Origin: an uncultured virus (IMG/VR IMGVR_UViG_3300027917_000036)
Lineage: Duplodnaviria > Heunggongvirae > Uroviricota > Caudoviricetes
IMG/VR virus record: IMGVR_UViG_3300027917_000036
Reading direction: 5' to 3' (one strand)
Length of the DNA: 64,000 nucleotides
Position 1 is the first letter of the stretch, and every line of letters starts with the position of its first letter. Made by a program: the position numbers and the translations under genes. The notes under the pieces are model-generated. The model saw only the letters and a list, made by a program, of their open reading frames with translations, was not told the DNA's origin and did no database searches. Positions 3,647 to 63,809 of this stretch are shown here, piece by piece.

Positions 3647-4747
3647 ATGGCTGTATCTGACGGAGTATTCGCTACTAATACACAGACTTCTCAGCAGGCT
3701 CGTTCTGTTAAGCTGGAAGATACTGAAGATTTGTTTGTTGGGGCAGATAGATCTACTCCAATTACTGTAGGCAATGCACGCCCAATTGATGACATATTAG
3801 TAGGCACTGTTATATTTGAATCTACTGCAATGAACCTAATAGTGCGTAATGGTGCTTGGGATCATAAGTTTGGAGATGAACAATTATTTCACCGCGTGTG
3901 GTTTTCGCCAACAGAAATTGATGCAGGATTTATTGTAGAAGATGTCAATCATACGGTGAGTATTTGGAATGCCAATTTTGACCAGATCGTCACATTAACT
4001 GATATTGATGTTGATTCTGCTGACGGCACAACGTTACAATTTGATACGCCACCTGTTGTAGTAAATAAGTTCTGGGAAAAGATTGGAACTCTTACGGTTA
4101 CTGAAGATGGGCCACCGACGCAGAATACTACTTATACATTTACAGTTTCAAGTATTGAATATGATTTAGTAATAACTGGTATTCGTGTTGTAACGTTGGA
4201 GAAAAGCCCGGAATGGACCGATGGTGTCCGTTTCGAAATGGTATTCGAAACGGCCTTAACAGAAAATCGTTGGGCATATGAACAGCGTAGACCGTTGAGG
4301 CCAGATGCATTTCGAAAGACCACTGTAAAATATGTTGGCCAAGGGGTGGATGCACAAAGATTACGGCAGAAGATTATGTATGGGCATGATAAGGTGTATG
4401 GTGTTCCCGTATTTCATGAACCAATAGAATTAGCATCTGACCCACAAAGTAGCAGTACTATCACATCTTCAAATACATTGACTTATTATTGGCATCTTAA
4501 TAATCAGTGTAACTATATCGTGTTATATGACTATTCAACATGGACTGCCGAGATTAAGGAAATTAGTTCTGTTGGGTCAACATCTATTGTATTAGTTAAT
4601 GTAGTGGCAGATTCTTTTGATCCGTTGGTTTCTATAGCATATCCTGTATATATGGGCACAATGGAACAGGCTCGTGTTGTGCAGGAAACTCATGACATCA
4701 TGGCTGTAAGCGTTGAATATAAAGAGTTCTTAATAGGGGATGAATAA
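3647..4747 (+). CDS. Tail assembly / distal tail-like structural protein
   Basis: PEWTDGVR...EQRRPLR motif seen in siphophage tail tip proteins; operon context. Confidence 0.55.
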   Translation: MAVSDGVFATNTQTSQQARSVKLEDTEDLFVGADRSTPITVGNARPIDDILVGTVIFESTAMNLIVRNGAWDHKFGDEQLFHRVWFSPTEIDAGFIVEDVNHTVSIWNANFDQIVTLTDIDVDSADGTTLQFDTPPVVVNKFWEKIGTLTVTEDGPPTQNTTYTFTVSSIEYDLVITGIRVVTLEKSPEWTDGVRFEMVFETALTENRWAYEQRRPLRPDAFRKTTVKYVGQGVDAQRLRQKIMYGHDKVYGVPVFHEPIELASDPQSSSTITSSNTLTYYWHLNNQCNYIVLYDYSTWTAEIKEISSVGSTSIVLVNVVADSFDPLVSIAYPVYMGTMEQARVVQETHDIMAVSVEYKEFLIGDE

Positions 4748-5370: not shown

Positions 5371-6167
5371 CATTGAGTGCAAATTATGCAGCGACTGAAA
5401 TGGAGGGCATGCCTGAATTGTATGAATTTGAATATGGCGGGACGTACGAACGTTATACTTCTTGGCCTAAAGATATACAGTTTCAGGGGCAAACTTTTTC
5501 TTCTCGACCTATACAACGTGGTGGGATTCGGGCTGATCAAGAGTTTAGCGATGCAACTGTTACAATAACAGCACCTGTCGTGAGTGGGTTTGAGAGATAT
5601 GTTCAGGATGAACCTATAGAACCAACTAATGTAATAATCTATCATGCTTTGGAAAGCGATCTGACTGATTTTGCCGTATTGTTTAATGGTCGTGTTATCA
5701 GTGTTACTTTTCAAAATGCACAAGTGGTACAAGCAAAATGTGAATCTCGTGCTAATATTTTAAGTCTTGAATGGCCAAGGGTTACGGTTCAAAGTTATTG
5801 CAATAAAACTATTTATAATGATGAATGTGGTGTTGACGATAGCCTTTATAGGGTTTCGGGAAGTGTTACGGCAATATCTGGAGCCACATATACCGTGAGT
5901 GGATTAAATAGTTTTTCTAATGGATATTTTACAGCTGGATTTGTTGCTTATTTAACGGATAACAGGCTTATCACTAATCATGTTGGGAATGATATTGACT
6001 TGCAGTTGCAGTTCGATAGTCGTGTTGTGGTCGGTACCACTGTAGATGTTTATCCAGGATGCCGTAATAGTCCGGCATTATGTACAACTCGTTTTAATAA
6101 CTTTGATAATTTTCTTGGAATGCCTTATGTCCCAAGTTCTAATCCTGTAATATGGGGTGTGAAGTGA
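5367..6167 (+). CDS. Baseplate hub / tail tip protein, BR0599 (DUF2163)-like
   Basis: C-terminal PGC...C..RFNN..NFLGMPYVP..NP signature with conserved Cys residues. Confidence 0.85.
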   Translation: MTLSANYAATEMEGMPELYEFEYGGTYERYTSWPKDIQFQGQTFSSRPIQRGGIRADQEFSDATVTITAPVVSGFERYVQDEPIEPTNVIIYHALESDLTDFAVLFNGRVISVTFQNAQVVQAKCESRANILSLEWPRVTVQSYCNKTIYNDECGVDDSLYRVSGSVTAISGATYTVSGLNSFSNGYFTAGFVAYLTDNRLITNHVGNDIDLQLQFDSRVVVGTTVDVYPGCRNSPALCTTRFNNFDNFLGMPYVPSSNPVIWGVK

Positions 6168-6655
6168 ATCATGCGTTTGCCGATGATAGCTTGTGGGAAA
6201 AGACTGTACAAGTTTCGCGGTCTTGGATCGGTACTCCTTACCGTCATATGTTTGCCGCGAGGGGTAGAGGTGCTGATTGTACGATGTTCCTTGCAAAAAT
6301 CTTTGAAAGTGTCGGCATCCTCAAAATGCCAAAAATTGAATACTATCCCAAGGATTGGTTTATACATACGGATCAGGAAATCGTCTTGGAAGGTCTTGCT
6401 TCAGCGATAAAGCATTCTATTACGAATGGTTTCTATGCTGAAATGTTCAGGTTTGAAGGGCAGGAATTTTTACGTGGTGATTTGTTATGTTTTGCTTTGA
6501 ACAAAAATGGTATAACTAATCATGCCGGTATGTGGTTGGAAGATAGTCGTATCATTCATAGCATCAATAATCGTGGAGTTTCGATTCTTACTTATCGGCC
6601 GGCACTTTGGAATCATCGTTTGACCAATATTTTTCGTGTCTATAAAGGCGAATAG
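6152..6655 (+). CDS. NlpC/P60 tail-associated peptidase
   Basis: WIGTPYRH...GADC and HAG...IIHS catalytic Cys/His motifs; start may be a few codons later. Confidence 0.9.
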   Translation: MGCEVNHAFADDSLWEKTVQVSRSWIGTPYRHMFAARGRGADCTMFLAKIFESVGILKMPKIEYYPKDWFIHTDQEIVLEGLASAIKHSITNGFYAEMFRFEGQEFLRGDLLCFALNKNGITNHAGMWLEDSRIIHSINNRGVSILTYRPALWNHRLTNIFRVYKGE

Positions 6656-6658
6656 TTT

Positions 6659-8989
6659 ATGGGTATTGAAGCAGCAATAATAATTGGTGTAGCGATTGTC
6701 GTTGGCACATTGGCTGTTATATTTCTTGTGCCTTCTGCTTCTCAAGATGCTATGCATGCTGAAGAGAAGTTGAATATTACAATGGCCAAGGAAGGAACAG
6801 TTGTACCCGTCATTTATGGAACTGTTCGTTTGCCTGGTAATATTGTTTGGTGGGACAATATGCTTTCTGTAGAAATTTATGCAGAAGGAGGCAAGGGTGG
6901 TGGTGATTCGCAAGTCGCTGGATATCGATATTATATTGATATGTGGCAAGTTATTTGCATGGGCAAGGTTGAATTTGTTAAGGCGTATAAAAACGATAAA
7001 GAATATCAACTTGGTACTGGAGATTTTGAGGATGAATATGCAGCATTATTATCAGCTCTGCTTAAGAGTCCTTACAGACTTGAAATGACGGCTGACTGGA
7101 ATGATGGGACCGAGGATACTTATCCAGATTGGGAAGATGCCCCTTCTCCTTATGCTAATAGGATTCCAGGTGTTGCACATATGTGGTTTCAGAGATTTGA
7201 TCTTGGAGAGAATAATACATATGTTCCAACTATACATTATGTAATGAAGAGAGACTTAACAGGATGCCCCATTGGGAATCATACTTTGACATATGGAAAT
7301 AATCCTGCTGCTATCATAGCAGATATGTTATTAAGTGCTGGGGAATTAACATCTTCATTTGATATTGATATGTTCAATGATGCAGCGACTTATTGGTATA
7401 ACAAGGATTATGGTTTGAATATAAGTTTCAATGCGAAGGGAAAGGTAAGAGATCAAATAGCACGTGTCTTATCATATGTTGGTGGTGCTTACGGCAGAAC
7501 GAATGACGATAAACATTATGTGAAAGCGTTTGACCCTAATGACTCAAGCGTAGCCACTTTAAATAAAGAGGACTTTATAGACTTTAATATTACACGTAGA
7601 AACTGGTATGATACTTATAATGATTATAAGGCAACGTTTCTGGATCGCACAAAGGATTATACAGAGCGGACTATAGGTGCCACGAACGTTGCTAATCAAC
7701 GGCTACAAGGACGCTCTAAGCCAATGAGCATTGATTTAAAGGGGTTCATTGATATAACAGCAGCCAGCAAAAGGCTCTGGGAAATCATGAAAACTGAAAG
7801 TTATCCTTATGCTACTCTGGATTTTCGCACAAATATGTCGTTCTTTGAGGTGCTTGTAGGTCAGGTTATTACTATCAACCATAGCGAATATGGTATTTCA
7901 AGTAAGAGGTATCGCATTATATCGAAGGAAGTATCAGATTCAAAAACTAATGAATTGCGATTTAATGCTATACAGATGGTTGAGGATATTATTGATGATA
8001 ACTATATTGAAGGTGGCGATCCATTATGGACACGTCCGGTAGTAGAGCCAGAGGCATTAGTTAAACAGCAATTGTTTGAATTACCATATCATCCTGATTA
8101 TGGGCATGCGCGTGCCTACTTATGCTTATGTGCTCGAGAAAATAGTTTTGAAACTGGATGGAGAACTTTTGTTTCTACAACAGGAACGGATTATCAGAAT
8201 TATGGTGTATTCCAAGGGTGGTCACAGAACGGGACTCTGGATGAAACTTATGTAGCGACGACTAATGAAATTGATGATGATATAGGTATATTATATACAC
8301 CGTATCGTGATGATCCTTTTGTTGATTCGATAGGTCGAGCTGATTTGTTTGCCCTGGAAAGGTACGCTATTATTGGCGATGAGATTATGAAGTTTCAAAC
8401 TGTTACACCAGTAGGCAGTAATTCTTATCGTCTCACTGGGGTTGTTAGAGGTTTGTTCAATACTGATATTGTCCAGCATAATAGTGGCGCCACTATATGG
8501 CTCACGTATCCGCGTCCTGGCAACATCCTAACTGGCGTAGGTGCTGACGATTTCTATGTGAAGTTTGCACCATTTTATGGTGATAACATAATCGATTTAT
8601 CAGATGCTTCAGCTATTCACTTTACTTCGGCAAGTATTGAAGATAAGGCATCAACGCCATGGCCACCTTGTGCTATTAAAGCCACACGTTCGGGTTCCAG
8701 TGTTAGTCTGGAATGGTGGCCAACTAATCAGGATAATCCTGGCGCTGGTATTGTTGCTGCAAGTTCGCAGACAACAACTGTTCCAATGCTATACGATCAG
8801 GATTTTGAAGCTTATAATAGTATTGATGGGATTGGTGCTGTAGCCGTGGTTGACGGCACAACAGACAACTATAATACAGCATCTGGATTTACCTATTATG
8901 TTAGGGCACGTTGGAATGGTCGCGTTTCAGATTGGGTGTCCGTTGTTGTTGGTACGGGCGATGGTGATTATATAGGACCGGTGATTTAA
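6659..8989 (+). CDS. Central tail fibre / tail tip protein (gpJ/GTA-like)
   Basis: VPVIYGTVRLPGNIVW N-terminus, NPAAII motif, EIMKF...LTGVVRGLFNT...H motif. Confidence 0.85.
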   Translation: MGIEAAIIIGVAIVVGTLAVIFLVPSASQDAMHAEEKLNITMAKEGTVVPVIYGTVRLPGNIVWWDNMLSVEIYAEGGKGGGDSQVAGYRYYIDMWQVICMGKVEFVKAYKNDKEYQLGTGDFEDEYAALLSALLKSPYRLEMTADWNDGTEDTYPDWEDAPSPYANRIPGVAHMWFQRFDLGENNTYVPTIHYVMKRDLTGCPIGNHTLTYGNNPAAIIADMLLSAGELTSSFDIDMFNDAATYWYNKDYGLNISFNAKGKVRDQIARVLSYVGGAYGRTNDDKHYVKAFDPNDSSVATLNKEDFIDFNITRRNWYDTYNDYKATFLDRTKDYTERTIGATNVANQRLQGRSKPMSIDLKGFIDITAASKRLWEIMKTESYPYATLDFRTNMSFFEVLVGQVITINHSEYGISSKRYRIISKEVSDSKTNELRFNAIQMVEDIIDDNYIEGGDPLWTRPVVEPEALVKQQLFELPYHPDYGHARAYLCLCARENSFETGWRTFVSTTGTDYQNYGVFQGWSQNGTLDETYVATTNEIDDDIGILYTPYRDDPFVDSIGRADLFALERYAIIGDEIMKFQTVTPVGSNSYRLTGVVRGLFNTDIVQHNSGATIWLTYPRPGNILTGVGADDFYVKFAPFYGDNIIDLSDASAIHFTSASIEDKASTPWPPCAIKATRSGSSVSLEWWPTNQDNPGAGIVAASSQTTTVPMLYDQDFEAYNSIDGIGAVAVVDGTTDNYNTASGFTYYVRARWNGRVSDWVSVVVGTGDGDYIGPVI

Positions 8990-56592: not shown

Positions 56593-56610
56593 GTGTGCCT
56601 CCTTTCTGTC

Positions 56611-56672
56611 AGCTGCCTCATCAGTACCGTAGCGCCACCTACGGCAGACGGTGCCGAAGCACCGTTTCGGCT
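56611..56672 (-). ncRNA. Type II hammerhead ribozyme 1
   Basis: AGCC-GAAAC-GGUGC(UUCG)GCACC-GUC^UGCCGUAG(GUGGCG)CUACGGUA-CUGAUGA-GGC; predicted cut 3' of position 56647. Confidence 0.92.
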
Positions 56673-57864
56673 AATCCAGAATGTGCATTTTGTATAAGTC
56701 TTGTTCTTCTGGTCCGCCCATTACTATGGTGATAACTTGTCCTTTCTTTCTAACAAGTTTACGGATGGTACTCCGTACACGAGATGTAGCCTTCTTTTTA
56801 TCAAGATGATGTTTAACCATAACACTTTCGACGATTTCTGTTAAGCTGGAACCGTTTGATTTTTGAAGCTCCTGGACGATAGTCATGGAAGGGCCATCCT
56901 TTTTAAAACCGAGCTTGCGTGTTTTCTTTTTCTTCATTTCTTTGCGTTGATCACGGCGAGTTATCTTTTTGTGGTAAACAGTTCGCCTTTTGATTTTTCG
57001 CTTTGGTTTTTCTTCAGCCTTGGTTTTACGTCGGCTAATCTTTCTGACTGGCTTGGCTTTCTCTGCGATCTTATCTTTACGAGAAGGATCAAATAGATTC
57101 TCTGGAACTGTTTTCCCTATAAAGGAAAAACAGTCTGCCACGCATTGACGCGCCTCTGTTACAAACCCTTCAGGCAACTTTTCACCACGTGCCCAGCGGT
57201 TATCCATTCTATTCAACTTAATAATAGAAAGGATGGCAACCTCTTTAGGAATGTTTTCGAATAATATTTTTTCCGATGGTTCGTGATAGACCAACATACT
57301 TTCGCCGCGACCTATCACTTTTGGGATTAAATACCAGTCGATTCCTTCCCTGATAACAACGTCTCGGTCTTCGACCTTTTTCCTGCCAGTTGCCCTTTCC
57401 GGAGGTTTTTTCTTACTTTTAACCTTTTTCTTTTTAGGTGCTACAGGAACCTTTTTGTCAGGAGTATCCATGATTTTCTTCACGGCCTTTTTGTCTTCCT
57501 TGGCTTTCTTTTCTTTCGCCAGCTGGGCCTTCGTTTTTTTCTTTTTCTTTGGAGGCTCCTTCTTTTTTGTTTTGGGTTTTTTGGCAGGTGGCGCTTTCTT
57601 TTTGGTTGGTGGTTTTTCCTTGGTTGGTTTGTCTTTGGATGCTTCAGGCACGAGCTCCTTGTATAGACTGTACTTCTGGCATTTCGGGCAATCGATATCT
57701 TTTCCTGATAACTTATCATCGTCGAGAACAAGAGTTTCCTTGTTACAACGAGCGTAACCATCATGATGGAAATGAACCCGTTTGCCGTTCATTGCCTTGC
57801 CTATCTGCCAGTCGATTGCTGGGGATACTACCCCATTATCATTGGTTGGTTGATTCTGTTCCAT
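56671..57864 (-). CDS. Lys-rich protein with Zn motif and probable C-terminal winged helix
   Basis: Start moved to MEQNQ after AGGAGG; H..C...CPKC; K/P-rich linker; IxRR repeats. Confidence 0.6.
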   Translation of the reverse strand: MEQNQPTNDNGVVSPAIDWQIGKAMNGKRVHFHHDGYARCNKETLVLDDDKLSGKDIDCPKCQKYSLYKELVPEASKDKPTKEKPPTKKKAPPAKKPKTKKKEPPKKKKKTKAQLAKEKKAKEDKKAVKKIMDTPDKKVPVAPKKKKVKSKKKPPERATGRKKVEDRDVVIREGIDWYLIPKVIGRGESMLVYHEPSEKILFENIPKEVAILSIIKLNRMDNRWARGEKLPEGFVTEARQCVADCFSFIGKTVPENLFDPSRKDKIAEKAKPVRKISRRKTKAEEKPKRKIKRRTVYHKKITRRDQRKEMKKKKTRKLGFKKDGPSMTIVQELQKSNGSSLTEIVESVMVKHHLDKKKATSRVRSTIRKLVRKKGQVITIVMGGPEEQDLYKMHILD

Positions 57865-58060
57865 GACTATCCTCCTGTCCTGAGTTTTTATAAAAGTGAT
57901 AAGCACGTTTTCCCGCCATGGCTTGTTTCTTCTGAAAGCATGGATAGCAAACATCAGCCGTTGGCTTCTGTTCAACTATTCGCTGTTTCAACCTTCTTTT
58001 ACAAGCATGGTTGGAACACTTTACATCACTGAGCACATTGTACTTGTATGCTTTCTTCAT
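57839..58060 (-). CDS. Small Zn-finger protein
   Basis: CSNHAC...CYPC; SD AAGGAGG after ribozyme 2. Confidence 0.55.
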   Translation of the reverse strand: MKKAYKYNVLSDVKCSNHACKRRLKQRIVEQKPTADVCYPCFQKKQAMAGKRAYHFYKNSGQEDSHGTESTNQ

Positions 58061-58077
58061 AAAACTCCCTCCTTTTT

Positions 58078-58146
58078 GTGGCTACCATCATCGGCACCAT
58101 GGCACCACCCATGGTGGACAGGGGCGCACAGACCCCTGTTTCGGCT
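58078..58146 (-). ncRNA. Type II hammerhead ribozyme 2
   Basis: AGCC-GAAAC-AGGGG..CCCCU-GUC^CACCAUGG(GUGGUG)CCAUGGUG-CCGAUGA-U-GGU-AGCCAC; cut after 58117. Confidence 0.88.
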
Positions 58147-58163
58147 GTATTAATTATAACTTA

Positions 58164-58415
58164 TTATAGTCTTTTCCCGGTGGCCTTGAGTACTTGTAGA
58201 TTATCTATTACATTGGCCATGCAGAAGTCACATCGCTTATATCGCAAATTATCATCTTCATCCAGAGTTGATAACAAATTACGATAGAAAGCAATGCACT
58301 TGCCATCAGGATCGAGAAGCATCTGGCATCTTGGGCTGCACAGATTATCGCTTGTCCTGATTTTTACATGAATGCGAGTTTCTTCGTCCGGTACTCTTGG
58401 CACTTGAACAGTCAT
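58164..58415 (-). CDS. Small Cys-rich protein
   Basis: CSPRC...C...RCDFC; SD GGAGG. Confidence 0.55.
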   Translation of the reverse strand: MTVQVPRVPDEETRIHVKIRTSDNLCSPRCQMLLDPDGKCIAFYRNLLSTLDEDDNLRYKRCDFCMANVIDNLQVLKATGKRL

Positions 58416-58490
58416 GATTAATACCTCCCTATAAATTGCCGGATTAGACTTGTCATTCTATCACACTGGAAGCAAAATGACAAGGAATAA

Positions 58491-58557
58491 ATGGGCTATC
58501 ATCTTCAGTGCCCTGTTACCCATGCAGAGCAGACGGTGCCGGAGCACCGTTTCGAAT
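58491..58557 (-). ncRNA. Type II hammerhead ribozyme 3
   Basis: UUC-GAAAC-GGUGC(UCCG)GCACC-GUC^UGCUCUG(CAUGGGUAA)CAGGGCA-CUGAAGA-U-GAU-AGCCCAU; cut after 58532. Confidence 0.85.
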
Positions 58558-58829
58558 TAACAGAAATCATCATAGGAACCAAGCGCAGTCCAGTACATTA
58601 TACGCTCTCTGCGACCGCTAATCTTTTTGTAAGTCTTTCTTGCTCTATCCTGAGTAAGCCAGTCTATATCAAAACTTTTCCTCATAATGCCTACTCTGAA
58701 ATAGATGCGATCGTTTTCGACTGGATATCCAGGTACCATAGAAGGAGCGTAATAGTTTGCGCTTCCAATCACTATTGCGCATCCGTTTTCCAGCCATCCA
58801 ACTTGCTCGATTTCCATTTGCGGATTCAT
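58557..58829 (-). CDS. Hypothetical early protein
   Basis: SD AAGGAGG; bounded by ribozymes 4 and 3. Confidence 0.6.
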   Translation of the reverse strand: MNPQMEIEQVGWLENGCAIVIGSANYYAPSMVPGYPVENDRIYFRVGIMRKSFDIDWLTQDRARKTYKKISGRRERIMYWTALGSYDDFC

Positions 58830-58854
58830 GATAATCCCTCCTTTAATTGTGATT

Positions 58855-58932
58855 TAGGCTACCTCATCGGTGAATAGTTGCCTACACTATTCAGACGATC
58901 GTTGGGAATCAGCCCCAACGACCGTTTCGGCT
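58855..58932 (-). ncRNA. Type II hammerhead ribozyme 4
   Basis: AGCC-GAAAC-GGUCGUUGGG..CCCAACGAUC-GUC^UGAAUAG(UGUAGGCAA)CUAUUCA-CCGAUGA-GGU-AGCCUA; cut after 58894. Confidence 0.88.
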
Positions 58933-58951
58933 TGCTGATGATGGATATGGT

Positions 58952-59329
58952 TTATTTGCGATTAATAACGACTTCTATAAATGCAGCAATATCAGTCGCA
59001 ATAGCATCCATCTGAGAAGTTAATGCTTTCAGGTCCGTAGCTTTCTTGCCAAGGGCGCGGACCTTTCCACTGTTGATTGTCTTATTGATAGATTCCACTT
59101 GCTTTGCGATTTTAGCAGTGGACTTCTCAAAGACATTCAGTTCGGAGCCAAGCATAGCAAGGAGCCTGTCGGGTTGTGCTTTTGGGGACCTTGCTTTTCT
59201 TGTTTTGGCTTTTTCCCTGCGAGCTGCGCGTTTGGCCTTGGCCTCTGCGATCTGCTCTGGAGTCCTTTTGGTGCGAGTAGTTTTTCTCTTTTTAGGTGCT
59301 ACTTTCTTTTTTTCTTTTTTCTTTGCCAT
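58952..59329 (-). CDS. Lys/Arg-rich histone-like protein with coiled coil
   Basis: MAKKKEKKKVAPKKRK...; SD AAGGAGG. Confidence 0.65.
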   Translation of the reverse strand: MAKKKEKKKVAPKKRKTTRTKRTPEQIAEAKAKRAARREKAKTRKARSPKAQPDRLLAMLGSELNVFEKSTAKIAKQVESINKTINSGKVRALGKKATDLKALTSQMDAIATDIAAFIEVVINRK

Positions 59330-59346
59330 GATAAGTTCCTCCTTAT

Positions 59347-59413
59347 GTGGCTACCATCATCAGCATCGCAGAGCCACCTGCGATGGACGGGGACCAAAGT
59401 CCCCGTTTCGGCT
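59347..59413 (-). ncRNA. Type II hammerhead ribozyme 5
   Basis: AGCC-GAAAC-GGGGAC(UUUG)GUCCCC-GUC^CAUCGCAG(GUGGCU)CUGCGAUG-CUGAUGA-U-GGU-AGCCAC; cut after 59386. Confidence 0.92.
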
Positions 59414-59727
59414 TACGCGAACATATTGTTAATGTGGATTTCAGGCATCCTATATAGCTGGAACCATGCCTTAAGAATAGGCGTAACAACTACATAATTC
59501 GTGACCTGTGCTTCTTCCAGAGCAAGAAGCATGAATCCCTTAACGATAAGTGGATCAAGGTTTTGAGCCAACAGGTACGAAGGGATGCTTGGACTGTCCA
59601 CATGCCTACCATCCGCTATAAAGCCATCTTTGATTTTCTTAAGATAACTTTTTGCGTAACTGATAAAAGTTGGTTGGCAATAATCAACAATCTGTCCAAT
59701 GAGTTGAGTTGTCAGGTTAATACCCAT
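59413..59727 (-). CDS. Hypothetical early protein
   Basis: Start moved to MGINL after AAGGAGG. Confidence 0.6.
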   Translation of the reverse strand: MGINLTTQLIGQIVDYCQPTFISYAKSYLKKIKDGFIADGRHVDSPSIPSYLLAQNLDPLIVKGFMLLALEEAQVTNYVVVTPILKAWFQLYRMPEIHINNMFA

Positions 59728-59757
59728 AACGCTTTCCTCCTTTAAATCTAAATAGTT

Positions 59758-59825
59758 TGTGACTGCCATCATCAGTACCTCGCCGTCACACGAGGCAGAC
59801 GGTGCCCAAGGGCACCGTTTCGGCT
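59758..59825 (-). ncRNA. Type II hammerhead ribozyme 6
   Basis: AGCC-GAAAC-GGUGCC(CUUG)GGCACC-GUC^UGCCUCG(UGUGACGG)CGAGGUA-CUGAUGA-U-GGC-AGUCACA; cut after 59798. Confidence 0.92.
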
Positions 59826-59844
59826 ATACTTATTATAACAGTTT

Positions 59845-60159
59845 TTACAGTTTTTCGTCTTTGAACGCGATGGTTCCTAATACTTTCAAGGCCATAGCAA
59901 CACTATTGTTCAGGCTGATTTTCCCGACGTATAAGTTATGCTGTTTTCCCTTATATGTTACAAAAATCGTTTCTTCTTTTTGGTCGAAAGGTTTGATCTT
60001 ATCCAGTGGCGGGAAGATTGTAAGTTCTGGCCTCGTCATTTTGACGAACCATAGATCGAAGGCATCGATAGCCTTCATTTTGCTTGTGAATACTCCCAGG
60101 ATTTCTCCATCTTCTTTGATTACCCAAATATCCGTTTGTTGTCTAATGTTCTTTCCCAT
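59845..60159 (-). CDS. Hypothetical early protein
   Basis: SD AAGGAGG. Confidence 0.6.
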   Translation of the reverse strand: MGKNIRQQTDIWVIKEDGEILGVFTSKMKAIDAFDLWFVKMTRPELTIFPPLDKIKPFDQKEETIFVTYKGKQHNLYVGKISLNNSVAMALKVLGTIAFKDEKL

Positions 60160-60184
60160 AATAATCCCTCCTTAATAAATTGTT

Positions 60185-60250
60185 TGGCTACCATCTTCAG
60201 CACCACAGCACCACCTGTGGTGGACGACCGCCATTGGCGGTCGTTTCGGC
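60185..60250 (-). ncRNA. Type II hammerhead ribozyme 7
   Basis: GCC-GAAAC-GACCGCC(AAU)GGCGGUC-GUC^CACCACAG(GUGGUG)CUGUGGUG-CUGAAGA-U-GGU-AGCCA; cut after 60223. Confidence 0.9.
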
Positions 60251-60252
60251 GA

Positions 60253-60336
60253 TTAAACATACCCGAAAATTGCACGTTTAATTATAACGTAACCTAAAAA
60301 ACATCCCAGACAAAATAGCAAAATTATACCTAACAT
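60253..60336 (-). CDS. 27-aa hydrophobic peptide not in the ORF track
   Basis: MLGIILLFCLGCFLGYVIIKRAIFGYV; SD AAGGAGG; stop immediately before ribozyme 7. Confidence 0.6.
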   Translation of the reverse strand: MLGIILLFCLGCFLGYVIIKRAIFGYV

Positions 60337-60349
60337 GACTTCCCCTCCT

Positions 60350-60697
60350 TTAAGATCGAAGCCCATAGAACGTAACCATATGAAGGGCTTCTAATGTTGC
60401 GCCATTTAGTTTACCAAGATTCCGTTTTAGAGTTTTCCAGTACTCATGGTCCCAACCATAAACATTGTCCTCGGCGAGACGGTTAATAATTCCGTCTACC
60501 ATGTTGGTTTTTTCCATTGATGATTTTGGGCTTTGCCGCATGTTAATGCTTTTCTTCATGATTGCCATTGTTTCTACGGCATCATCCTTGTCATCAGTGA
60601 AGTACGATTTATCTTCGATAACTTTTCCATCTTCGATCCATCGAACTTCATACTCGCCCCATTGTTTTCTTTCGACAAGTTTCAATTGGATCCCCAT
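60350..60697 (-). CDS. Hypothetical early protein
   Basis: EY.VRW......SYFTDDKDDA motif; SD AAGGAGG. Confidence 0.6.
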   Translation of the reverse strand: MGIQLKLVERKQWGEYEVRWIEDGKVIEDKSYFTDDKDDAVETMAIMKKSINMRQSPKSSMEKTNMVDGIINRLAEDNVYGWDHEYWKTLKRNLGKLNGATLEALHMVTFYGLRS

Positions 60698-60763
60698 AAT
60701 TCCCTCCTTGTTTATGATGCGTTCCAGTAGGACGATAACTACTACTGGAACGCAAATGGGCTG

Positions 60764-61036
60764 TTATTTTTTAGGTCTTACATAATCGAAGGTCAGCCAT
60801 CCCTTGCGATTATCCGGGCCAGTACGCTGGAATACTCCTTGAGCACCATAATGCAGATTATAGTGTTCAACAAGTTCCTGGAGGAGGTCGTCGGTAAAGA
60901 TATAATACCCTGCCTCAAGGAATTTTAATTCCTCTTCGGTTGACAGGGGATTAAACCGTTTTGCAATTACTCTGGTCACTGCGTTCTTATCGTCGTCAAT
61001 TCCCAGAACTTTTGCTACCCATACCCGTTTTCCCAT
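60764..61036 (-). CDS. Hypothetical early protein
   Basis: Start moved to MGKRV after AAGGAGG. Confidence 0.6.
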   Translation of the reverse strand: MGKRVWVAKVLGIDDDKNAVTRVIAKRFNPLSTEEELKFLEAGYYIFTDDLLQELVEHYNLHYGAQGVFQRTGPDNRKGWLTFDYVRPKK

Positions 61037-61060
61037 GGTACTCCTCCTTTCAAATGAGGA

Positions 61061-61127
61061 ACCTGCCTCATCAGCACGTGGAGGTAATCCCACGTGGACT
61101 ATTCACCCGGAGGTGAATAGTTTCGGC
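61061..61127 (-). ncRNA. Type II hammerhead ribozyme 8
   Basis: GCC-GAAAC-UAUUCACC(UCCG)GGUGAAUA-GUC^CACGUGG(GAUUACCU)CCACGUG-CUGAUGA-GGC-AGGU; cut after 61097. Confidence 0.92.
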
Positions 61128-61129
61128 GT

Positions 61130-61300
61130 TTAATTGTTATCCTCAGCCCTGCGTTTCCAGAAACGCACATTCGCATCGGCGTCTTTGCAACGTCGGGCCC
61201 AGCGTACCACAGCAGCCTTAGATTTTGACTGTTCAACCTTTTTAGCACAAAAGGCACGCTTTTCTTCCCAGAACTTAACATTCGCTTCTGCAGTGTTCAT
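61130..61300 (-). CDS. 56-aa basic protein not in the ORF track
   Basis: MNTAEANVKFWEEKR...ADANVRFWKRRAEDNN; SD AAGGAG; internal A.ANV.FW repeat. Confidence 0.6.
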   Translation of the reverse strand: MNTAEANVKFWEEKRAFCAKKVEQSKSKAAVVRWARRCKDADANVRFWKRRAEDNN

Positions 61301-61312
61301 AGCTAAACTCCT

Positions 61313-61582
61313 TTAATCGTTGATACAACTTCTCACTTTGTGATCAATGACACGCCAGCCAAAAGAAGCCCATCGCCCTTCAGTTGGTTTCCATCCTTTG
61401 CTGGCAATAGCGGATATAGTCGCTTTTCTTGGCTCCAAATATTCAGGATCCGTATGATCCATCATAATTGCGAAAACGTCCTCTGAATAAGTTGGCCAAC
61501 AACTGTTATACCGCAACATATCCACAGGAAATATACCGCTGCCTTCAACTATAAATCTGTGCATAAACATTTTTGTTGCCAT
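61313..61582 (-). CDS. Hypothetical early protein
   Basis: F.VEGSG.FP.DMLRY..CWP...PT.GRWASFGW.V; SD AAGGAGG. Confidence 0.65.
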   Translation of the reverse strand: MATKMFMHRFIVEGSGIFPVDMLRYNSCWPTYSEDVFAIMMDHTDPEYLEPRKATISAIASKGWKPTEGRWASFGWRVIDHKVRSCIND

Positions 61583-61612
61583 AATAAATCCCTCCTTGTG
61601 ATAAATCGATTT

Positions 61613-61678
61613 TGAGCCACCTCATCGGCGCATGGAGCTCATCTCATGCGGACAGGGACCGAAGCCCCTGTTTCGGCA
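61613..61678 (-). ncRNA. Type II hammerhead ribozyme 9
   Basis: GCC-GAAAC-AGGGGC(UUCG)GUCCCU-GUC^CGCAUG(AGAUGAGCUC)CAUGCG-CCGAUGA-GGU-GGCUCA; cut after 61651. Confidence 0.88.
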
Positions 61679-61679
61679 T

Positions 61680-61880
61680 TTAGTGAACAGTGTAACCTCT
61701 GTTCTTTAGGATTGTGTGCCAGATACCCAATTTATATGGATTAGTCATCCTTTGGGTACGAAGATTAATATGTTGCATAATCTTCTCATCGCTATCGGCA
61801 AATTTCTTCTCAATATTTTCGAGCCTGAAAATTGCCTTTTCCACTTCCTTTAATGTTCTTTCTGCTGTCATAGTTTTCAT
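61680..61880 (-). CDS. Hypothetical early protein
   Basis: SD AAGGAGG; bounded by ribozymes 10 and 9. Confidence 0.6.
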   Translation of the reverse strand: MKTMTAERTLKEVEKAIFRLENIEKKFADSDEKIMQHINLRTQRMTNPYKLGIWHTILKNRGYTVH

Positions 61881-61904
61881 GATAAGTTTCCTCCTTAAAA
61901 TATT

Positions 61905-61976
61905 TTGACCTGCCTCATCGGCAGTACGGCGGTCAATCCGTACTGGACGGGGATCTTAGCGATCCCCGTTTCGGCT
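61905..61976 (-). ncRNA. Type II hammerhead ribozyme 10
   Basis: AGCC-GAAAC-GGGGAUC(GCUAA)GAUCCCC-GUC^CAGUACGG(AUUGACCG)CCGUACUG-CCGAUGA-GGC-AGGUCAA; cut after 61946. Confidence 0.9.
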
Positions 61977-61977
61977 C

Positions 61978-62433
61978 TTATGATTTGTTCTCATAAACAA
62001 ATGGTTCCGCTGTTCTGACACTCCCAAGGTCATCACAGCATACAAATCCTTCAAGATGTTTTGGATGGAGTTTGTAGGGAAGGAACAGCATCCAGACAAG
62101 CAAGTCTTCTCGCTTCTCAAATTCTTTTAAATAGACAAAGACCTTCTCGTCGTCATAGCGGTCTATTAAGTCCATTTCCACTGTTTTATCATCTATAATA
62201 ATAACAATATCATAAATGTTATAAGTGGTGAACAGAACGGCTTCGCCAATCATCGGGCTTTCGCTTTCACAGCCAGCATAACATTCCCAGTCCTCTTCGC
62301 TAAAGGGCTTGAACATCATATCCTTAAATCGTGGAGTAGAATGTCGAATGTCACGCACCATAGCTGCTATGCGCTTGCCAGATTCCCTAATAGAACCCCA
62401 ATCTTTGCTTAACTGTTCAATTGTTTTTTCCAT
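61978..62433 (-). CDS. Hypothetical early protein
   Basis: SD AAGGAGG; bounded by ribozymes 11 and 10. Confidence 0.6.
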   Translation of the reverse strand: MEKTIEQLSKDWGSIRESGKRIAAMVRDIRHSTPRFKDMMFKPFSEEDWECYAGCESESPMIGEAVLFTTYNIYDIVIIIDDKTVEMDLIDRYDDEKVFVYLKEFEKREDLLVWMLFLPYKLHPKHLEGFVCCDDLGSVRTAEPFVYENKS

Positions 62434-62465
62434 CGTAAATCCCTCCTTAAAATAAATTAATATTA

Positions 62466-62533
62466 GACTGCCTCATCGGCGTGAACCCGTCACGGCTCAC
62501 GGACTGTTACCCCGAAGGGTAACAGTTTCGGCT
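62466..62533 (-). ncRNA. Type II hammerhead ribozyme 11
   Basis: AGCC-GAAAC-UGUUACCC(UUCG)GGGUAACA-GUC^CGUGAGCC(GUGACG)GGUUCACG-CCGAUGA-GGC-AGUC; cut after 62502. Confidence 0.88.
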
Positions 62534-63809
62534 TATAGGAGGATTTATCGGAGGATTAATGCATCAGCCTGCGATCCTACTGAAATTCGGATCGGTTCTT
62601 CCCAAAATTCCAACGGGATTCTCTGTTGCGGTTTTCTGGCATCCAAACCCGTGCGCGGTTGGACTAAGATGTTGTGGGGATTTAGAACTGATGGCTCACT
62701 TTACCACATGCTTTATCGGGAAAGGCCTCGCGTCCCATGCCAGACGCGGTCCACGGTTTTATCCATGGCTAATCCTTTCTGGTTTTCGTAAAATTCGATA
62801 AGTTTTTATAGTGAAAAACCGTTTTAGGAAGGAGCCCTATTTTTTGCACGGCAGGGACAAAACCATACCGGAGGGAAAATCGGGTGGGATAAAACTAAGC
62901 TATTCAACGGTTAAAAACGCTATCTTAAAACCTTATGAGAAGGATAACAAATCCAGAGGTTTTTGTTTTCCCTTGACCGCCCAGCCCGTTATCCTTAGGA
63001 ACCCAAGGGAGGGAGTCGCTGGAGCCCGACTCCCTGTATACATTATCGACATTTTTACACAAAAAACAAGGACCTGAGGGCATTTTAAAGGCTAAAAAGG
63101 GCCTCCAGAATCCTCCAGAAGGAAAAAAGGCCCGAAAACGCCTATTTTTACCCCTTCTATACCTAAAAAAGCGCATGTAGGCCGTTTTTCGTCCTCTCTG
63201 GACCGATATAAAATGCCCGAAAACCTAAAATGCCAAAAAAAGTCCTTTTTTAGCTATATTTTAGCTATAAGATAGCTGTTTTCACGATTAAATCTAAGTA
63301 AATCAAACTAAAAAATCAAACTCAGCCCTTCCCCATTTAGGGCTAAAAAAGCCCTAAAAACGGTTAAAAAGCCTTCCGAAATGCCGCTGCCCTACTTATC
63401 GTTTAGTCGCTAAAATAAGGATGTGAACAGTCCTGAGAGGATCCAGAATGAACAGTCGGGATAGGGCCGTAAAAGGGCTATAGGTTAAAAAAAAGCGCAA
63501 ACGCTAAAGGGGTGAAAAGCGTTGCGTTACGTGTTGCACGGTTACGGGTGAAGGGCTGCGTGCGTGGTGGTGGTACAGAGGGATGGGTTTTTTAGGATGA
63601 ACTCGCGCCACCTTCCCCCACGGCCACGGCCTATAGTTTGACGTTAATCCCATGCCGATGTGACCGGACACATCCGGAACATCCTGTATGTGTAAATTAT
63701 CCTTGTTTATATAGTCTGTTCAACTTATCATATAGCCTCTTGGAAATCCGTGTATGAACACGGTAAATGGTTATGTGCCTGGATGGCTTATTTTCTAACA
63801 GAGGGAGTG

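What the first reader, a model, noticed from the sequence alone, without database searches (positions are those of the whole stretch)
56611..62533. Array of 11 type II hammerhead ribozymes punctuating a phage early operon
Seen: 11 intergenic elements on the - (coding) strand share the order NCC/UUC-GAAAC-[stem III hairpin]-GUC-[stem I hairpin]-CYGAWGA-(U)-GGY/GAU. Each lies just after an upstream stop codon (several overlap it) or leader and shortly before the next SD. Stem sequences mostly differ yet stay paired, so structure rather than sequence is conserved. Established: this is the hammerhead core (CUGANGA, GAAA, NUH) in the type II permutation. Inference: the phage cuts its own early polycistronic RNA into mono- or oligocistronic units with no host nuclease, an RNA-catalysed analogue of T7 early-mRNA processing by RNase III. 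Individual phage hammerheads are known, but I am not aware of a gene-by-gene array of this density.
Basis: partly seen in the sequence, partly recalled or inferred. Interest (0 to 1): 0.95.

Follow-up and report, generated by a model that had tools for sequence, protein, structure and literature searches.

The report
Hammerhead ribozyme array between phage genes
Eleven small self-cutting RNA motifs (type II hammerhead ribozymes) do sit between the small early genes of this uncultivated phage and most likely chop its long messages into hairpin-capped pieces; the layout was first described in 2011 and is shared by this phage's relatives, so it is a large, clean example of a known kind.

Summary
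All 11 elements are on the minus strand at the stated places. My independent parse gives the same 11 cut sites.

- **Identification:** 7 of 11 pass Rfam's Hammerhead_II cut-off. The other 4 are missed even at E<=10. A model built only from other genomes' elements finds all 11 at 47-69 bits, with the next hit at 12.7.
- **Structure:** stems covary strongly (97.4% of cells paired, 0 of 500 shuffles). The type II pseudoknot covaries too.
- **Core variant:** 5 of 11 carry U4C (CCGAUGA), against 2 of 43 in relatives.
- **Best reading (inferred; no RNA data exist):** self-cleavage turns the transcripts into 7 single-gene and 3 two- or three-gene pieces, each with a terminal hairpin at both ends.
- **Not new in kind:** Perreault et al. 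2011 described clustered hammerheads flanking single prophage genes and proposed this role. This scan met similar arrays before on other DNA.
- **Added here:** it is a clade trait. Five related phage records carry 8-13 same-strand hammerheads upstream of the replication genes, while the genes between them turn over.
- **One operon?** Doubtful, because a strong internal promoter lies after element 9.

The parts
62461..62535 (-). E1, type II hammerhead with U4C core (CCGAUGA). Cut after 62502. Lies between the non-coding leader and the first gene.
   Evidence: 57.8 bits with the relatives-only model. Not found by Rfam. Stem III 10 bp, stem I 8 bp, pseudoknot only 3 bp.
61903..61978 (-). E2, type II hammerhead with U4C core. 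Cut after 61946.
   Evidence: 53.9 bits. Not found by Rfam. Pseudoknot UUGACC/GGUCAA, 6 bp. Stop codon 61978-61980 lies 2 nt before stem II.
61610..61680 (-). E3, type II hammerhead with U4C core. Cut after 61651.
   Evidence: 50.1 bits. Not found by Rfam. Pseudoknot 6 bp.
61056..61130 (-). E4, type II hammerhead with canonical core. Cut after 61097.
   Evidence: Rfam 37.3 bits. (47.1 bits).
60182..60253 (-). E5, type II hammerhead with core CUGAAGA and an extra U after A9. Cut after 60223.
   Evidence: Rfam 52.5 bits..
59757..59827 (-). E6, type II hammerhead with canonical core and an extra U after A9. Cut after 59798. Preceded by TGTTATAAT, an extended -10-like motif.
   Evidence: Rfam 62.2 bits..
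59345..59415 (-). E7, type II hammerhead with canonical core. Cut after 59386. The stop codon abuts stem II.
   Evidence: Rfam 51.4 bits. Pseudoknot GUGGCU/AGCCAC, 6 bp. (69.1 bits).
58852..58934 (-). E8, type II hammerhead with U4C core and a 13-bp stem III. Cut after 58894.
   Evidence: 55.0 bits. Not found by Rfam.
58490..58559 (-). E9, type II hammerhead with stem II UUC/GAU and core CUGAAGA. Cut after 58532. Followed by a promoter, not by a Shine-Dalgarno.
   Evidence: Rfam 42.7 bits..
58076..58148 (-). E10, type II hammerhead with U4C core and an extra U after A9. Cut after 58117. Preceded by two TATAAT motifs.
   Evidence: Rfam 49.9 bits despite U4C..
56606..56674 (-). E11, type II hammerhead with canonical core. 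Cut after 56647. The stop codon TAG overlaps stem II by 1 nt. The position is conserved in 4 relatives.
   Evidence: Rfam 61.6 bits. The conserved ~400-aa gene is followed by a hammerhead in L125, L134, L135 and L132.
58455..58483 (-). Internal promoter-like site, TTGTCA-17-TAGAAT with TG, inside a 9-bp inverted repeat that may be an operator.
   Evidence: 10 of 12 matches, TG present. (palindrome dG -12.1, z -3.1). Function not shown.
60718..60754 (-). Perfect 12-bp hairpin in the one long intergenic slot that has no hammerhead.
   Evidence: dG -22.9 kcal/mol, z -4.4. No Rfam match at E<=10.
56671..62433 (-). Fourteen genes in ten ribozyme-bounded segments: 61978-62433; 61680-61880; 61313-61582 and 61130-61300; 60764-61036, 60350-60697 and 60253-60336; 59845-60159; 59413-59727; 58952-59329; 58557-58829; 58164-58415; 57839-58060 and 56671-57864.
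   Evidence: ORFs, with starts chosen by the Shine-Dalgarno seen. No Pfam family passes its cut-off. Two weak-to-moderate PHROG families of unknown function.

Best explanation
**What it is**
- The 11 elements are functional type II hammerhead ribozymes.
- They are transcribed as part of the minus-strand messages that run from a ~1.1 kb non-coding head region, through 14 small genes of unknown function, into the replication genes.

**How each folds and cuts**
- Each folds as soon as it is transcribed: stem III hairpin, stem I hairpin, a 2-3 bp open stem II, and a pseudoknot between loop I and the 3' tail.
- It cuts itself after the C of GUC.

**What the cut leaves**
- The upstream RNA ends 6-8 nt (7 cases) or about 27-29 nt (3 cases) past its stop codon, in a stable hairpin. 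It carries one unpaired C and, by hammerhead chemistry, a 2',3'-cyclic phosphate.
- The downstream RNA starts with a fully paired hairpin and a 5'-hydroxyl, followed within 12-26 nt by the next Shine-Dalgarno.
- The message is thereby turned into 7 single-gene and 3 two- or three-gene mRNAs.

**What that probably achieves (inferred)**
- Both ends of each piece are capped against exonucleases and 5'-end-dependent decay.
- Translation start regions no longer depend on what lies upstream.
- That suits a region whose gene cassettes turn over quickly.

**Shown versus inferred**
- Shown: the motifs, their covariation, their placement, and their conservation across a phage clade.
- Inferred: transcription, cleavage, the stabilising or insulating effect, the 'early' timing, and slower cutting by the five U4C copies.
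For: **Motif identity**
- Rfam passes 7 of 11.
- The relatives-only model finds 11 of 11 at 47-69 bits, against 12.7 for the best other hit.

**Invariant parts (11 of 11)**
- GAAA, the A15.1-U16.1 pair, GUC, and C3, G5, A6, G8, A9.

**Selection on structure**
- Within the array: 97.4% of cells paired, 17 of 21 pairs with changes on both sides, 0 of 500 shuffles as high, slid controls 30-48%.
- Across 43 distinct elements of six related phages: 94.5% paired, covariation 0.921 against 0.215 for shuffles, 0 of 500.

**Pseudoknot**
- Summed helix length 55 against 38.6 +/- 2.6 for shuffled tails, 0 of 2000 as high.
- Own tails average 5.0 bp, other elements' tails 3.65 bp.
- At least 4 bp in 10 of 11.

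**Product ends**
- 3' hairpins of -12.1 to -20.3 kcal/mol with 1 unpaired nt.
- 5' hairpins of -7.1 to -13.0 kcal/mol with 0 unpaired nt.

**Placement**
- All on the coding strand, at gene boundaries.
- None elsewhere in the 64 kb.
- No convincing minus-strand terminator inside the array.

**Clade conservation**
- Of 7 helicase relatives at >=44% identity that have upstream DNA, 5 carry same-strand arrays.
- Whole records hold 13, 11, 11, 9 and 8 copies, each set confined to one region.
- The module 'stop, ribozyme, Shine-Dalgarno' recurs: a stop triplet within 15 nt upstream in 41 of 43, and a Shine-Dalgarno-like motif within 40 nt in 38 of 43.
- The hammerhead after the conserved ~400-aa gene keeps its place in 4 relatives while its stems change.
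- Only 5 of 17 upstream ORFs have a homologue in any relative.

**Published precedent**
- Triple arrangements cleave in vitro, and one cleaves in E. coli (PMC3088659, passages).
- Three type II hammerheads cleave in Desulfovibrio vulgaris cells (PMC8782182, abstract and passages).
- The engineered ribozyme insulator RiboJ raises transcript about twofold and protein 2-10-fold in E. coli (PMC6206723, abstract).
Against: - There is no RNA evidence of any kind. No RNA run is listed for this DNA, and the host is unknown.
- Five of 11 cores are U4C. Perreault et al. cite this change as 'considerably' lowering activity in vitro, and Rfam misses four of those five.
- E1's pseudoknot is only 3 bp. Published deletions from 6 to 4 bp cost about 20-fold in rate.
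- The internal promoter after E9, and the TATAAT motifs before E6 and E10, mean that part of the 'processing' may be 5'-leader trimming rather than cutting of a polycistron.
- In MFE folds of the cut leaders, part of the Shine-Dalgarno is paired in several, and all of it in E4. Freed translation starts are therefore not evident from folding.
- From my own knowledge: a 5'-hydroxyl is destabilising in hosts with RNase J, as shown for the glmS ribozyme product in Bacillus. The sign of the stability effect depends on the unknown host.
- Two sister phages (L130, L136) do without hammerheads.
Confidence: 0.75

Rival explanations
1. Only about half of the array still cuts. The five U4C elements (E1, E2, E3, E8, E10) are crippled or dead ribozymes. 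They would be kept only as hairpins, or be in the course of decay, so real processing happens at about six sites.
For: U4C is cited as considerably lowering activity in vitro (PMC3088659 Discussion). Rfam fails on 4 of the 5. U4C is rare elsewhere: 2 of 43 in relatives and 6 of 69 in other viral loci. E1 also has the weakest pseudoknot.
Against: - The U4C copies keep every other invariant nucleotide, full stems, and pseudoknots of 5-6 bp in 4 of 5.
- They score 50-59 bits with the relatives-only model.
- They are not recent duplicates of each other: mean identity within the set is 0.51, against 0.52 for the other pairs. The change was therefore either fixed several times or spread among otherwise diverged copies.
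- The same paper notes that a U4C viroid stays infectious.
- Enrichment to 5 of 11 (Fisher p 0.002) fits tolerance or selection better than decay, although it does not exclude decay.
Confidence: 0.25
2. The U4C copies are deliberately slow ribozymes. Fast (CUGA) and slow (CCGA) cutters would set different ratios of joined to separated messages along the array, and so tune the relative dosage or timing of the early genes.
For: The enrichment is significant against relatives and against other viral hammerheads. The three 5'-most elements are all U4C. All other features are conserved.
Against: There are no kinetic data. The pattern (E1, E2, E3, E8, E10) has no obvious link to gene content. Relatives manage with almost none (2 of 43). 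Spread by copying between neighbouring elements could give the same picture without selection.
Confidence: 0.15
3. The elements matter mainly as cassette borders. The shared ribozyme and Shine-Dalgarno sequences would serve as short homologies at which phages swap early genes, with RNA cleavage being secondary.
For: Gene content turns over while the punctuation stays: 5 of 17 ORFs are shared with any relative, and the small ones sit in other slots.
Against: Stems differ between copies (median pairwise identity 0.51). Only about 8 + 7 core bases plus the Shine-Dalgarno are shared, which is poor homology. Compensatory changes in stems and in the pseudoknot show selection on the RNA fold. The two roles do not exclude each other.
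Confidence: 0.1
4. Segments released with a 5'-OH and a 2',3'-cyclic phosphate are joined by an RtcB-type ligase, or by the ribozyme's reverse reaction, into circular mRNAs.
For: The end chemistry fits RtcB (own knowledge). The two halves of a type II hammerhead are self-contained hairpins, and stem II (GCC/GGY) is the same in 10 of 11, so a ligated circle would rebuild a ribozyme.
Against: Perreault et al. looked for spliced or circular products and saw none (data not shown in the paper). Every segment has a stop codon. Segment lengths show no pattern. A previous follow-up of this scan judged the same idea a coincidence on other DNA (e1-5924080).
Confidence: 0.04

Closest known systems
Clustered hammerhead ribozymes flanking genes in prophages (Perreault et al. 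2011, PLoS Comput Biol, PMC3088659; for example the Agrobacterium tumefaciens triple arrangement around ardA)
   Same: - Type II topology with the loop I to 3' tail pseudoknot and a short stem II.
- Sits between phage genes on the coding strand.
- Several per transcript, bounding single genes or short blocks.
- Proposed role: processing long phage transcripts into single-gene mRNAs (passages read).
   Different: - Copy number: 11 in 5.9 kb here, and 8-13 in relatives, against the triple arrangements tested there. I could not see their Figure 3.
- Here the array is a conserved trait of a clade of roughly 76-87 kb lytic-looking phages, upstream of the replication module.
- U4C is present in 5 of 11.
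- No cleavage data exist here.
RNase III processing of the phage T7 early transcript
   Same: - A long early transcript is cut between genes into discrete mRNAs.
- Each cut leaves a hairpin at the 3' end of the upstream mRNA, which stabilises it.
   Different: - T7 uses a host protein enzyme acting on double-stranded hairpins. It leaves 5'-phosphate and 3'-OH ends.
- Here the RNA would cut itself. It would leave 5'-OH and 2',3'-cyclic phosphate ends, with hairpins on both sides of the cut.
Engineered ribozyme insulators such as RiboJ (Clifton et al. 2018, PMC6206723, abstract read; original design recalled from Lou et al. 2012, not read)
   Same: A hammerhead placed between the upstream context and the ribosome-binding site removes the variable 5' part, leaves a hairpin at the new 5' end, and raises and standardises expression. 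E6 and E10, directly behind TATAAT motifs, have the same order: promoter-like motif, ribozyme, Shine-Dalgarno.
   Different: RiboJ is a type III satellite-RNA hammerhead with an added hairpin, used singly. Here there are natural type II elements, 11 in series, which also form the 3' end of the gene before them.
Type II hammerheads shown to cleave in vivo in Desulfovibrio vulgaris (cyPhyRNA-seq, PMC8782182, abstract and passages)
   Same: Same Rfam family, located near phage-like and hypothetical genes. This is evidence that such elements cut in cells.
   Different: Those are three dispersed copies, not an array.
Earlier notes of this scan on other DNA (e1-3417227: 11 type II hammerheads in an uncultivated phage; e1-5924080: five in one operon)
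   Same: Same kind of array, and the same verdict (a known kind, common in viral metagenomes).
   Different: A different genome. No look-alike of this window or of its helicase is in the scan's records.

Membership tests
Hammerhead ribozyme, type II (Rfam RF02276) | Core strand C3-U4-G5-A6-N7-G8-A9 | tested here: inconclusive
   Six of 11 are canonical (CUGAUGA or CUGAAGA). Five of 11 have C at position 4 (E1, E2, E3, E8, E10). U4C is a known natural variant with lowered activity.
Hammerhead ribozyme, type II (Rfam RF02276) | Core strand G12-A13-A14 with the A15.1-U16.1 pair | tested here: met
   GAAA is invariant in 11 of 11. The pair in columns 10-40 is AU in 11 of 11.
Hammerhead ribozyme, type II (Rfam RF02276) | Cleavage triplet NUH (H not G) | tested here: met
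   GUC in 11 of 11.
Hammerhead ribozyme, type II (Rfam RF02276) | Three helices around the core, with stems I and III closed by loops and stem II open (the type II permutation) | tested here: met
   Stem III 7-13 bp, stem I 6-9 bp, stem II 2-3 bp open, in 11 of 11. Covariation: 0 of 500 shuffles as high.
Hammerhead ribozyme, type II (Rfam RF02276) | Pseudoknot of four or more pairs between loop I and the 3' tail (present in the majority of type II members, per Perreault 2011) | tested here: met
   At least 4 bp in 10 of 11 and at least 5 bp in 7 of 11; E1 has 3 bp. The sum of 55 compares with 38.6 +/- 2.6 for shuffled tails, 0 of 2000 as high.
Hammerhead ribozyme, type II (Rfam RF02276) | Score at or above the family's gathering cut-off (37 bits) | tested here: inconclusive
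   Seven of 11 pass. Four of 11 are not reported even at E<=10. All 11 score 47-69 bits with a model built from relatives' elements.
Hammerhead ribozyme, type II (Rfam RF02276) | Mg2+-dependent self-cleavage giving 2',3'-cyclic phosphate and 5'-OH ends | not testable with these tools
   No RNA run holds this DNA. This needs in vitro transcription or end-mapping.
Clustered phage hammerheads that bound genes (Perreault et al. 2011) | Several hammerheads close together on one strand, flanking single genes or short gene blocks of a phage | tested here: met
   Eleven copies bound 10 segments holding 14 genes, and 7 segments hold one gene. Phage identity comes from PHROGs.

The most novel reading that the evidence does not exclude
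A clade of roughly 76-87 kb uncultivated phages has kept an array of 8-13 type II hammerheads as a plug-and-play expression platform for fast-changing early genes. It has done so over a divergence that leaves their helicases only 38-50% identical.

- Each ribozyme would act as a two-sided insulator. It gives the gene before it a hairpin-capped 3' end with a cyclic phosphate, placed 6-8 nt after the stop codon. It gives the gene after it a standard hairpin-capped 5'-OH leader with a Shine-Dalgarno. Any newly captured cassette would then be expressed and protected regardless of its neighbours.
- Sister phages would fill the same slots with another self-cleaving class (pistol-like modules in L130) or with plain hairpins.
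- In this phage, a set of slow U4C variants would additionally grade how far the message is separated.
Probability: 0.3. Interest if true: 0.6.

Novelty: new member of a known kind. Interest (0 to 1): 0.4.

Why it matters
The biological purpose of bacterial and phage self-cleaving ribozymes is still called elusive or unknown in the reviews I read (PMC6765202; PMC10085705 introduction).

This phage and its relatives offer an unusually clean comparative system for that question:
- There are 8-13 ribozymes per genome in one transcription region.
- One ribozyme sits at a position conserved across relatives.
- The genes between the ribozymes turn over quickly.
- Sister genomes fill the same slots with something else.
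- There is a natural series of canonical and U4C cores.

That makes the 'processing, stabilising and insulating' hypothesis directly testable with reporter operons. The find itself does not change what is known. It extends a 2011 observation in scale and shows that the arrangement is inherited within a phage clade.

Tried and rejected
- **RNA evidence.** The look-up of sequencing runs listed no RNA holder, only three DNA runs of marine sediment metagenomes. Laying their contigs showed the same phage with essentially no variation in the ribozymes, so there was no natural-variation test.
- **Own assembly.** It is not held. G001 is a 23 kb near-identical fragment carrying E9-E11 only.
- **Cultured relatives.** blastn of the array against GenBank phages gave no match. 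The DnaE-type polymerase is below 40% identical to any listed phage, so no host could be inferred. There is no tRNA in the window.
- **Close relatives by a single protein.** Only G001 was found. An alignment of 40 helicases was needed to reach relatives.
- **G002, G003 and G004 as relatives.** G002 shares only a 37%-identical polymerase on the strand opposite its array, and no helicase match. G003 and G004 share neither.
- **Other ribozyme classes in the window.** None at E<=10 in 54-64 kb.
- **Circular mRNA idea.** Segment lengths are 556, 295, 554, 874, 425, 412, 492, 362, 415 and 1470 nt. They show no multiple-of-3 or other pattern.
- **U4C copies as recent duplicates.** Rejected: mean identity within the set is 0.51, against 0.52 for the other pairs.
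- **First parsing script for the relatives.** It used lazy matching and mis-called many stems. It was redone by enumeration (after a script error).
- **Ambros and Flores 1998 (the U4C source).** Not held, so the U4C statement rests on Perreault's sentence alone.
- **Census limits.** The counts are a sample, not a census.
- **Literature.** Five full-text searches found no paper describing arrays larger than the 2011 triple arrangements. Perreault's Figure 3 and supplements were not seen and may show larger ones.

Full report
**1. Is it there?**

Yes. On the minus strand of 56.6-62.5 kb a loose regex for the hammerhead core order (GAAA ... GUH ... C[UC]GANGA) picks out 11 places with stems. The other regex hits, on both strands, lie in coding sequence and have no stems.

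Enumerating every split point for the best stem III and stem I hairpins gives GUC in all 11. It places cleavage after 62502, 61946, 61651, 61097, 60223, 59798, 59386, 58894, 58532, 58117 and 56647.

Rfam's Hammerhead_II model (RF02276, cut-off 37 bits) passes 7 of 11, at 62.2 down to 37.3 bits. The other four (E1, E2, E3, E8) are not reported even at E<=10. All four carry CCGAUGA instead of CUGAUGA. E10 has the same change but still scores 49.9 bits.

**2. Is it more than chance?**

On an alignment of the 11 copies, 97.4% of 196 cells form standard pairs. Seventeen of 21 pairs change on both sides, and no shuffle out of 500 reaches the observed values. Sliding the partner by 1-3 columns drops pairing to 30-48%.

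The type II tertiary contact is a pseudoknot between loop I and the tail after stem II. It is present with different sequences in different copies, for example UUGACC/GGUCAA, GUGGCU/AGCCAC and AUGGGU/GCCCAU.
- The summed helix length is 55, against 38.6 +/- 2.6 for shuffled tails (0 of 2000 as high).
- An element's own tail pairs better than other elements' tails (5.0 against 3.65 bp).
- It reaches at least 4 bp in 10 of 11. E1 has only 3 bp.

A covariance model built from the 11 (R1) finds nothing else in the 64 kb with filters off; the next hit scores 12.7 bits. That test is circular. So I built a second model only from 44 elements found in six other phage genomes (R2). It recovers all 11 at 47.1-69.1 bits, and again the next hit scores 12.7 bits. 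The 44 elements had been collected with R1. Rfam independently passes 22 elements in the four of those six relatives it was run on.

**3. Anatomy**

- Stem III is 7-13 bp, stem I is 6-9 bp and stem II is 3 bp (GCC with GGY).
- The exception is E9, which has UUC with GAU. That subtype recurs in relatives L127 and L132.
- Five copies have an extra U between A9 and stem II. This is common: 36 of 69 other viral type II hammerheads have it.
- Seven of the ten elements that follow a gene start 0-2 nt after, or overlapping, the stop codon. E6, E8 and E10 have 21-23 nt spacers.
- An AAGGAG Shine-Dalgarno follows the core by 12-26 nt in 10 of 11.
- The 11 cuts bound ten segments with 14 genes. Seven segments hold one gene, two hold two and one holds three.
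- None of the 14 proteins reaches a Pfam cut-off. Two have PHROG families of unknown function.

**4. Context**

The window is a tailed phage. The tape measure and tail genes are on the plus strand. A DnaE-type polymerase, clamp loader, DnaB, primase, helicase, recombinase and exonucleases are on the minus strand. The array sits at the head of that minus-strand block, behind about 1.1 kb without convincing genes. The label 'early' is therefore a reasonable inference, but it is not shown.

The array is probably not one operon.
- Right after E9 there is no Shine-Dalgarno. Instead there is a TTGTCA-17-TAGAAT site with an upstream TG, set in a 9-bp inverted repeat.
- E6 and E10 are directly preceded by TATAATAAGT. 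For E6 this is part of TGTTATAAT. In both, the -10-like hexamer ends 6 nt before the A that precedes stem II.
- If those are promoters, these two ribozymes would trim a 5' leader of about 30 nt rather than separate cistrons. I did not establish that they are promoters.

The source is a marine sediment metagenome. No RNA run is listed, and the host is unknown.

**5. How it most likely works**

By hammerhead chemistry (established knowledge), each cut leaves a 2',3'-cyclic phosphate upstream and a 5'-hydroxyl downstream.

The type II permutation splits the ribozyme into two self-contained hairpins.
- The upstream product would end in stem III, at -12.1 to -20.3 kcal/mol with one unpaired C.
- The downstream product would begin with stem I, at -7.1 to -13.0 kcal/mol with no unpaired 5' nucleotide.
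- In seven cases only 6-8 nt separate the stop codon from the 3' hairpin.

I infer that each processed mRNA is capped by a hairpin at both ends, and that its translation start no longer depends on upstream sequence. Two parallels exist. One is the hairpins left by RNase III in T7 early mRNAs (own knowledge). The other is engineered ribozyme insulators: RiboJ raises transcript about twofold and protein 2-10-fold in E. coli (PMC6206723, abstract).

Points against the inference:
- MFE folds of the cut leaders leave part of the Shine-Dalgarno paired in several cases, and all of it in E4.
- In hosts with RNase J, a 5'-hydroxyl can speed decay (own knowledge).

**6. The U4C cores**

Five of 11 cores (E1, E2, E3, E8, E10) have C at position 4. 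In relatives this is 2 of 43, and in other viral loci 6 of 69. Fisher's test gives p = 0.0025 and 0.0019 respectively.

Perreault et al. state that U4C 'considerably decreases activity in vitro' yet still permits viroid infectivity. They cite Ambros and Flores 1998. I could not read that source.

The U4C copies are no more alike than other pairs (0.51 against 0.52 mean identity), and they keep all other features. They may be slow, dead or compensated. Only kinetics can tell.

**7. Relatives**

The helicase next to the array has hundreds of relatives at 40-52% identity, on contigs of up to about 110 kb. I fetched 79 viral loci with up to 10 kb flanks and searched them with R1.
- Hits occur in only six loci. 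All are on the helicase strand and upstream of it: L135 11, L134 10, L125 9, L127 6, L126 4 (only 5.9 kb of upstream DNA held) and L132 4.
- Of the 7 loci at >=44% identity that have upstream DNA, 5 carry arrays. L130 and L136 do not, and they have no Rfam family at the gathering threshold.
- Whole records hold 13 (87 kb, complete), 11, 11, 9 and 8 copies. Each set is confined to one region and one strand.

The module is the same in the relatives: a stop triplet within 15 nt upstream in 41 of 43, and a Shine-Dalgarno-like motif within 40 nt downstream in 38 of 43. Across 43 distinct elements, 94.5% of cells pair (slid controls 35-45%; 0 of 500 shuffles reach the covariation score). That alignment was fitted to the model, which favours the structure.

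Gene content is not conserved. Only 5 of 17 upstream ORFs have a homologue in any relative, and the three small ones sit in other slots. In contrast, the hammerhead that follows the conserved ~400-aa gene (E11) keeps its place in L125, L134, L135 and L132, with quite different stems.

**8. Beyond the clade**

I searched 80 of its loci (78 contigs, +/-4 kb flanks) with R1.
- 45 contigs have at least 1 hit.
- 14 have at least 2, 5 have at least 3 and 4 have at least 4.
- 2 have at least 7, and 1 has 11.

The 11-copy contig (G002, 67.6 kb) also gives 11 Rfam hits at E<=1, of which 3 are over the cut-off. It shares only a 37%-identical polymerase with this phage.

**9. What is known**

Perreault et al. 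2011 (passages read) discovered natural type II hammerheads and their pseudoknot. [quoted passage not shown] Later reviews say that ribozymes cluster near each other and near phage genes, and that the reason is unknown (PMC6765202; PMC10085705).

This scan had already met such arrays on other DNA (e1-3417227, e1-5924080). No look-alike of this window is in its records.

**10. Verdict**

This is a new member of a known kind.

It has three useful extras:
- The array is inherited within a phage clade.
- One ribozyme position is conserved across relatives.
- U4C cores are unusually frequent here.

Interest 0.4.

Noticed in passing
L130:3175-3287, 3501-3605, 4577-4677, 6118-6219, 7198-7302 and 8122-8184: A sister phage (helicase 44% identical) has no hammerheads. 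Its slots hold a repeated ~100-nt module instead. Four copies give sub-threshold Pistol ribozyme matches (RF02679: 29.1, 27.1, 24.0 and 21.5 bits against a cut-off of 34.5). The matches cover AUAAAU, the P2 helix, UUAAG, the P3 hairpin and the GU junction, but P1 is weak. These may be a pistol variant in the same slots. L136 has pairs of strong hairpins there instead.
   Followed up: partly
window 60718-60754 (-): A perfect 12-bp hairpin (fold of 60698-60766: -22.9 kcal/mol, z -4.4) fills the only long intergenic slot of the array that has no hammerhead. It has no Rfam match. It might be a substrate for a host double-strand RNase, or a stabiliser.
   Followed up: partly
window 58455-58483 (-): A strong sigma-70-type promoter-like site (TTGTCA, 17 nt, TAGAAT, with TG) lies inside a 9-bp inverted repeat, directly after E9 and before gene 58164-58415. 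It looks like a repressor-controlled internal promoter.
   Followed up: partly
window 59828-59850 and 58149-58175 (-): E6 and E10 are each preceded by TATAATAAGT, which for E6 is part of TGTTATAAT. The -10-like hexamer ends 6 nt before the A in front of stem II. A transcript could therefore start at the first base of the ribozyme, which would then remove the triphosphate leader. Relatives show TATAAT just before some hammerheads too (L125:7816, L134:7886). This could equally be tandem stop codons in AT-rich spacers.
   Followed up: no
window 62540-63700: About 1.1 kb upstream of E1 has no convincing gene. It is rich in short repeats: four copies of a 15-mer like AAAATGCCCGAAAA on the plus strand, a 17-mer pair 25 nt apart, and several T-runs after GC-rich words. 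It may be a regulatory, origin or genome-end region.
   Followed up: no
L135:4512-4602: One hammerhead of a relative has GAUAA in place of GAAA, which looks like the U13a insertion variant that Perreault et al. found active.
   Followed up: no
window 56671-57864 (-): A 397-aa protein with a long lysine-rich middle and CxxC pairs is the only array gene conserved in most relatives, and it always lies just before a hammerhead or the replication genes. No family passes: DUF1178 scores 18 bits against a cut-off of 31.6.
   Followed up: no
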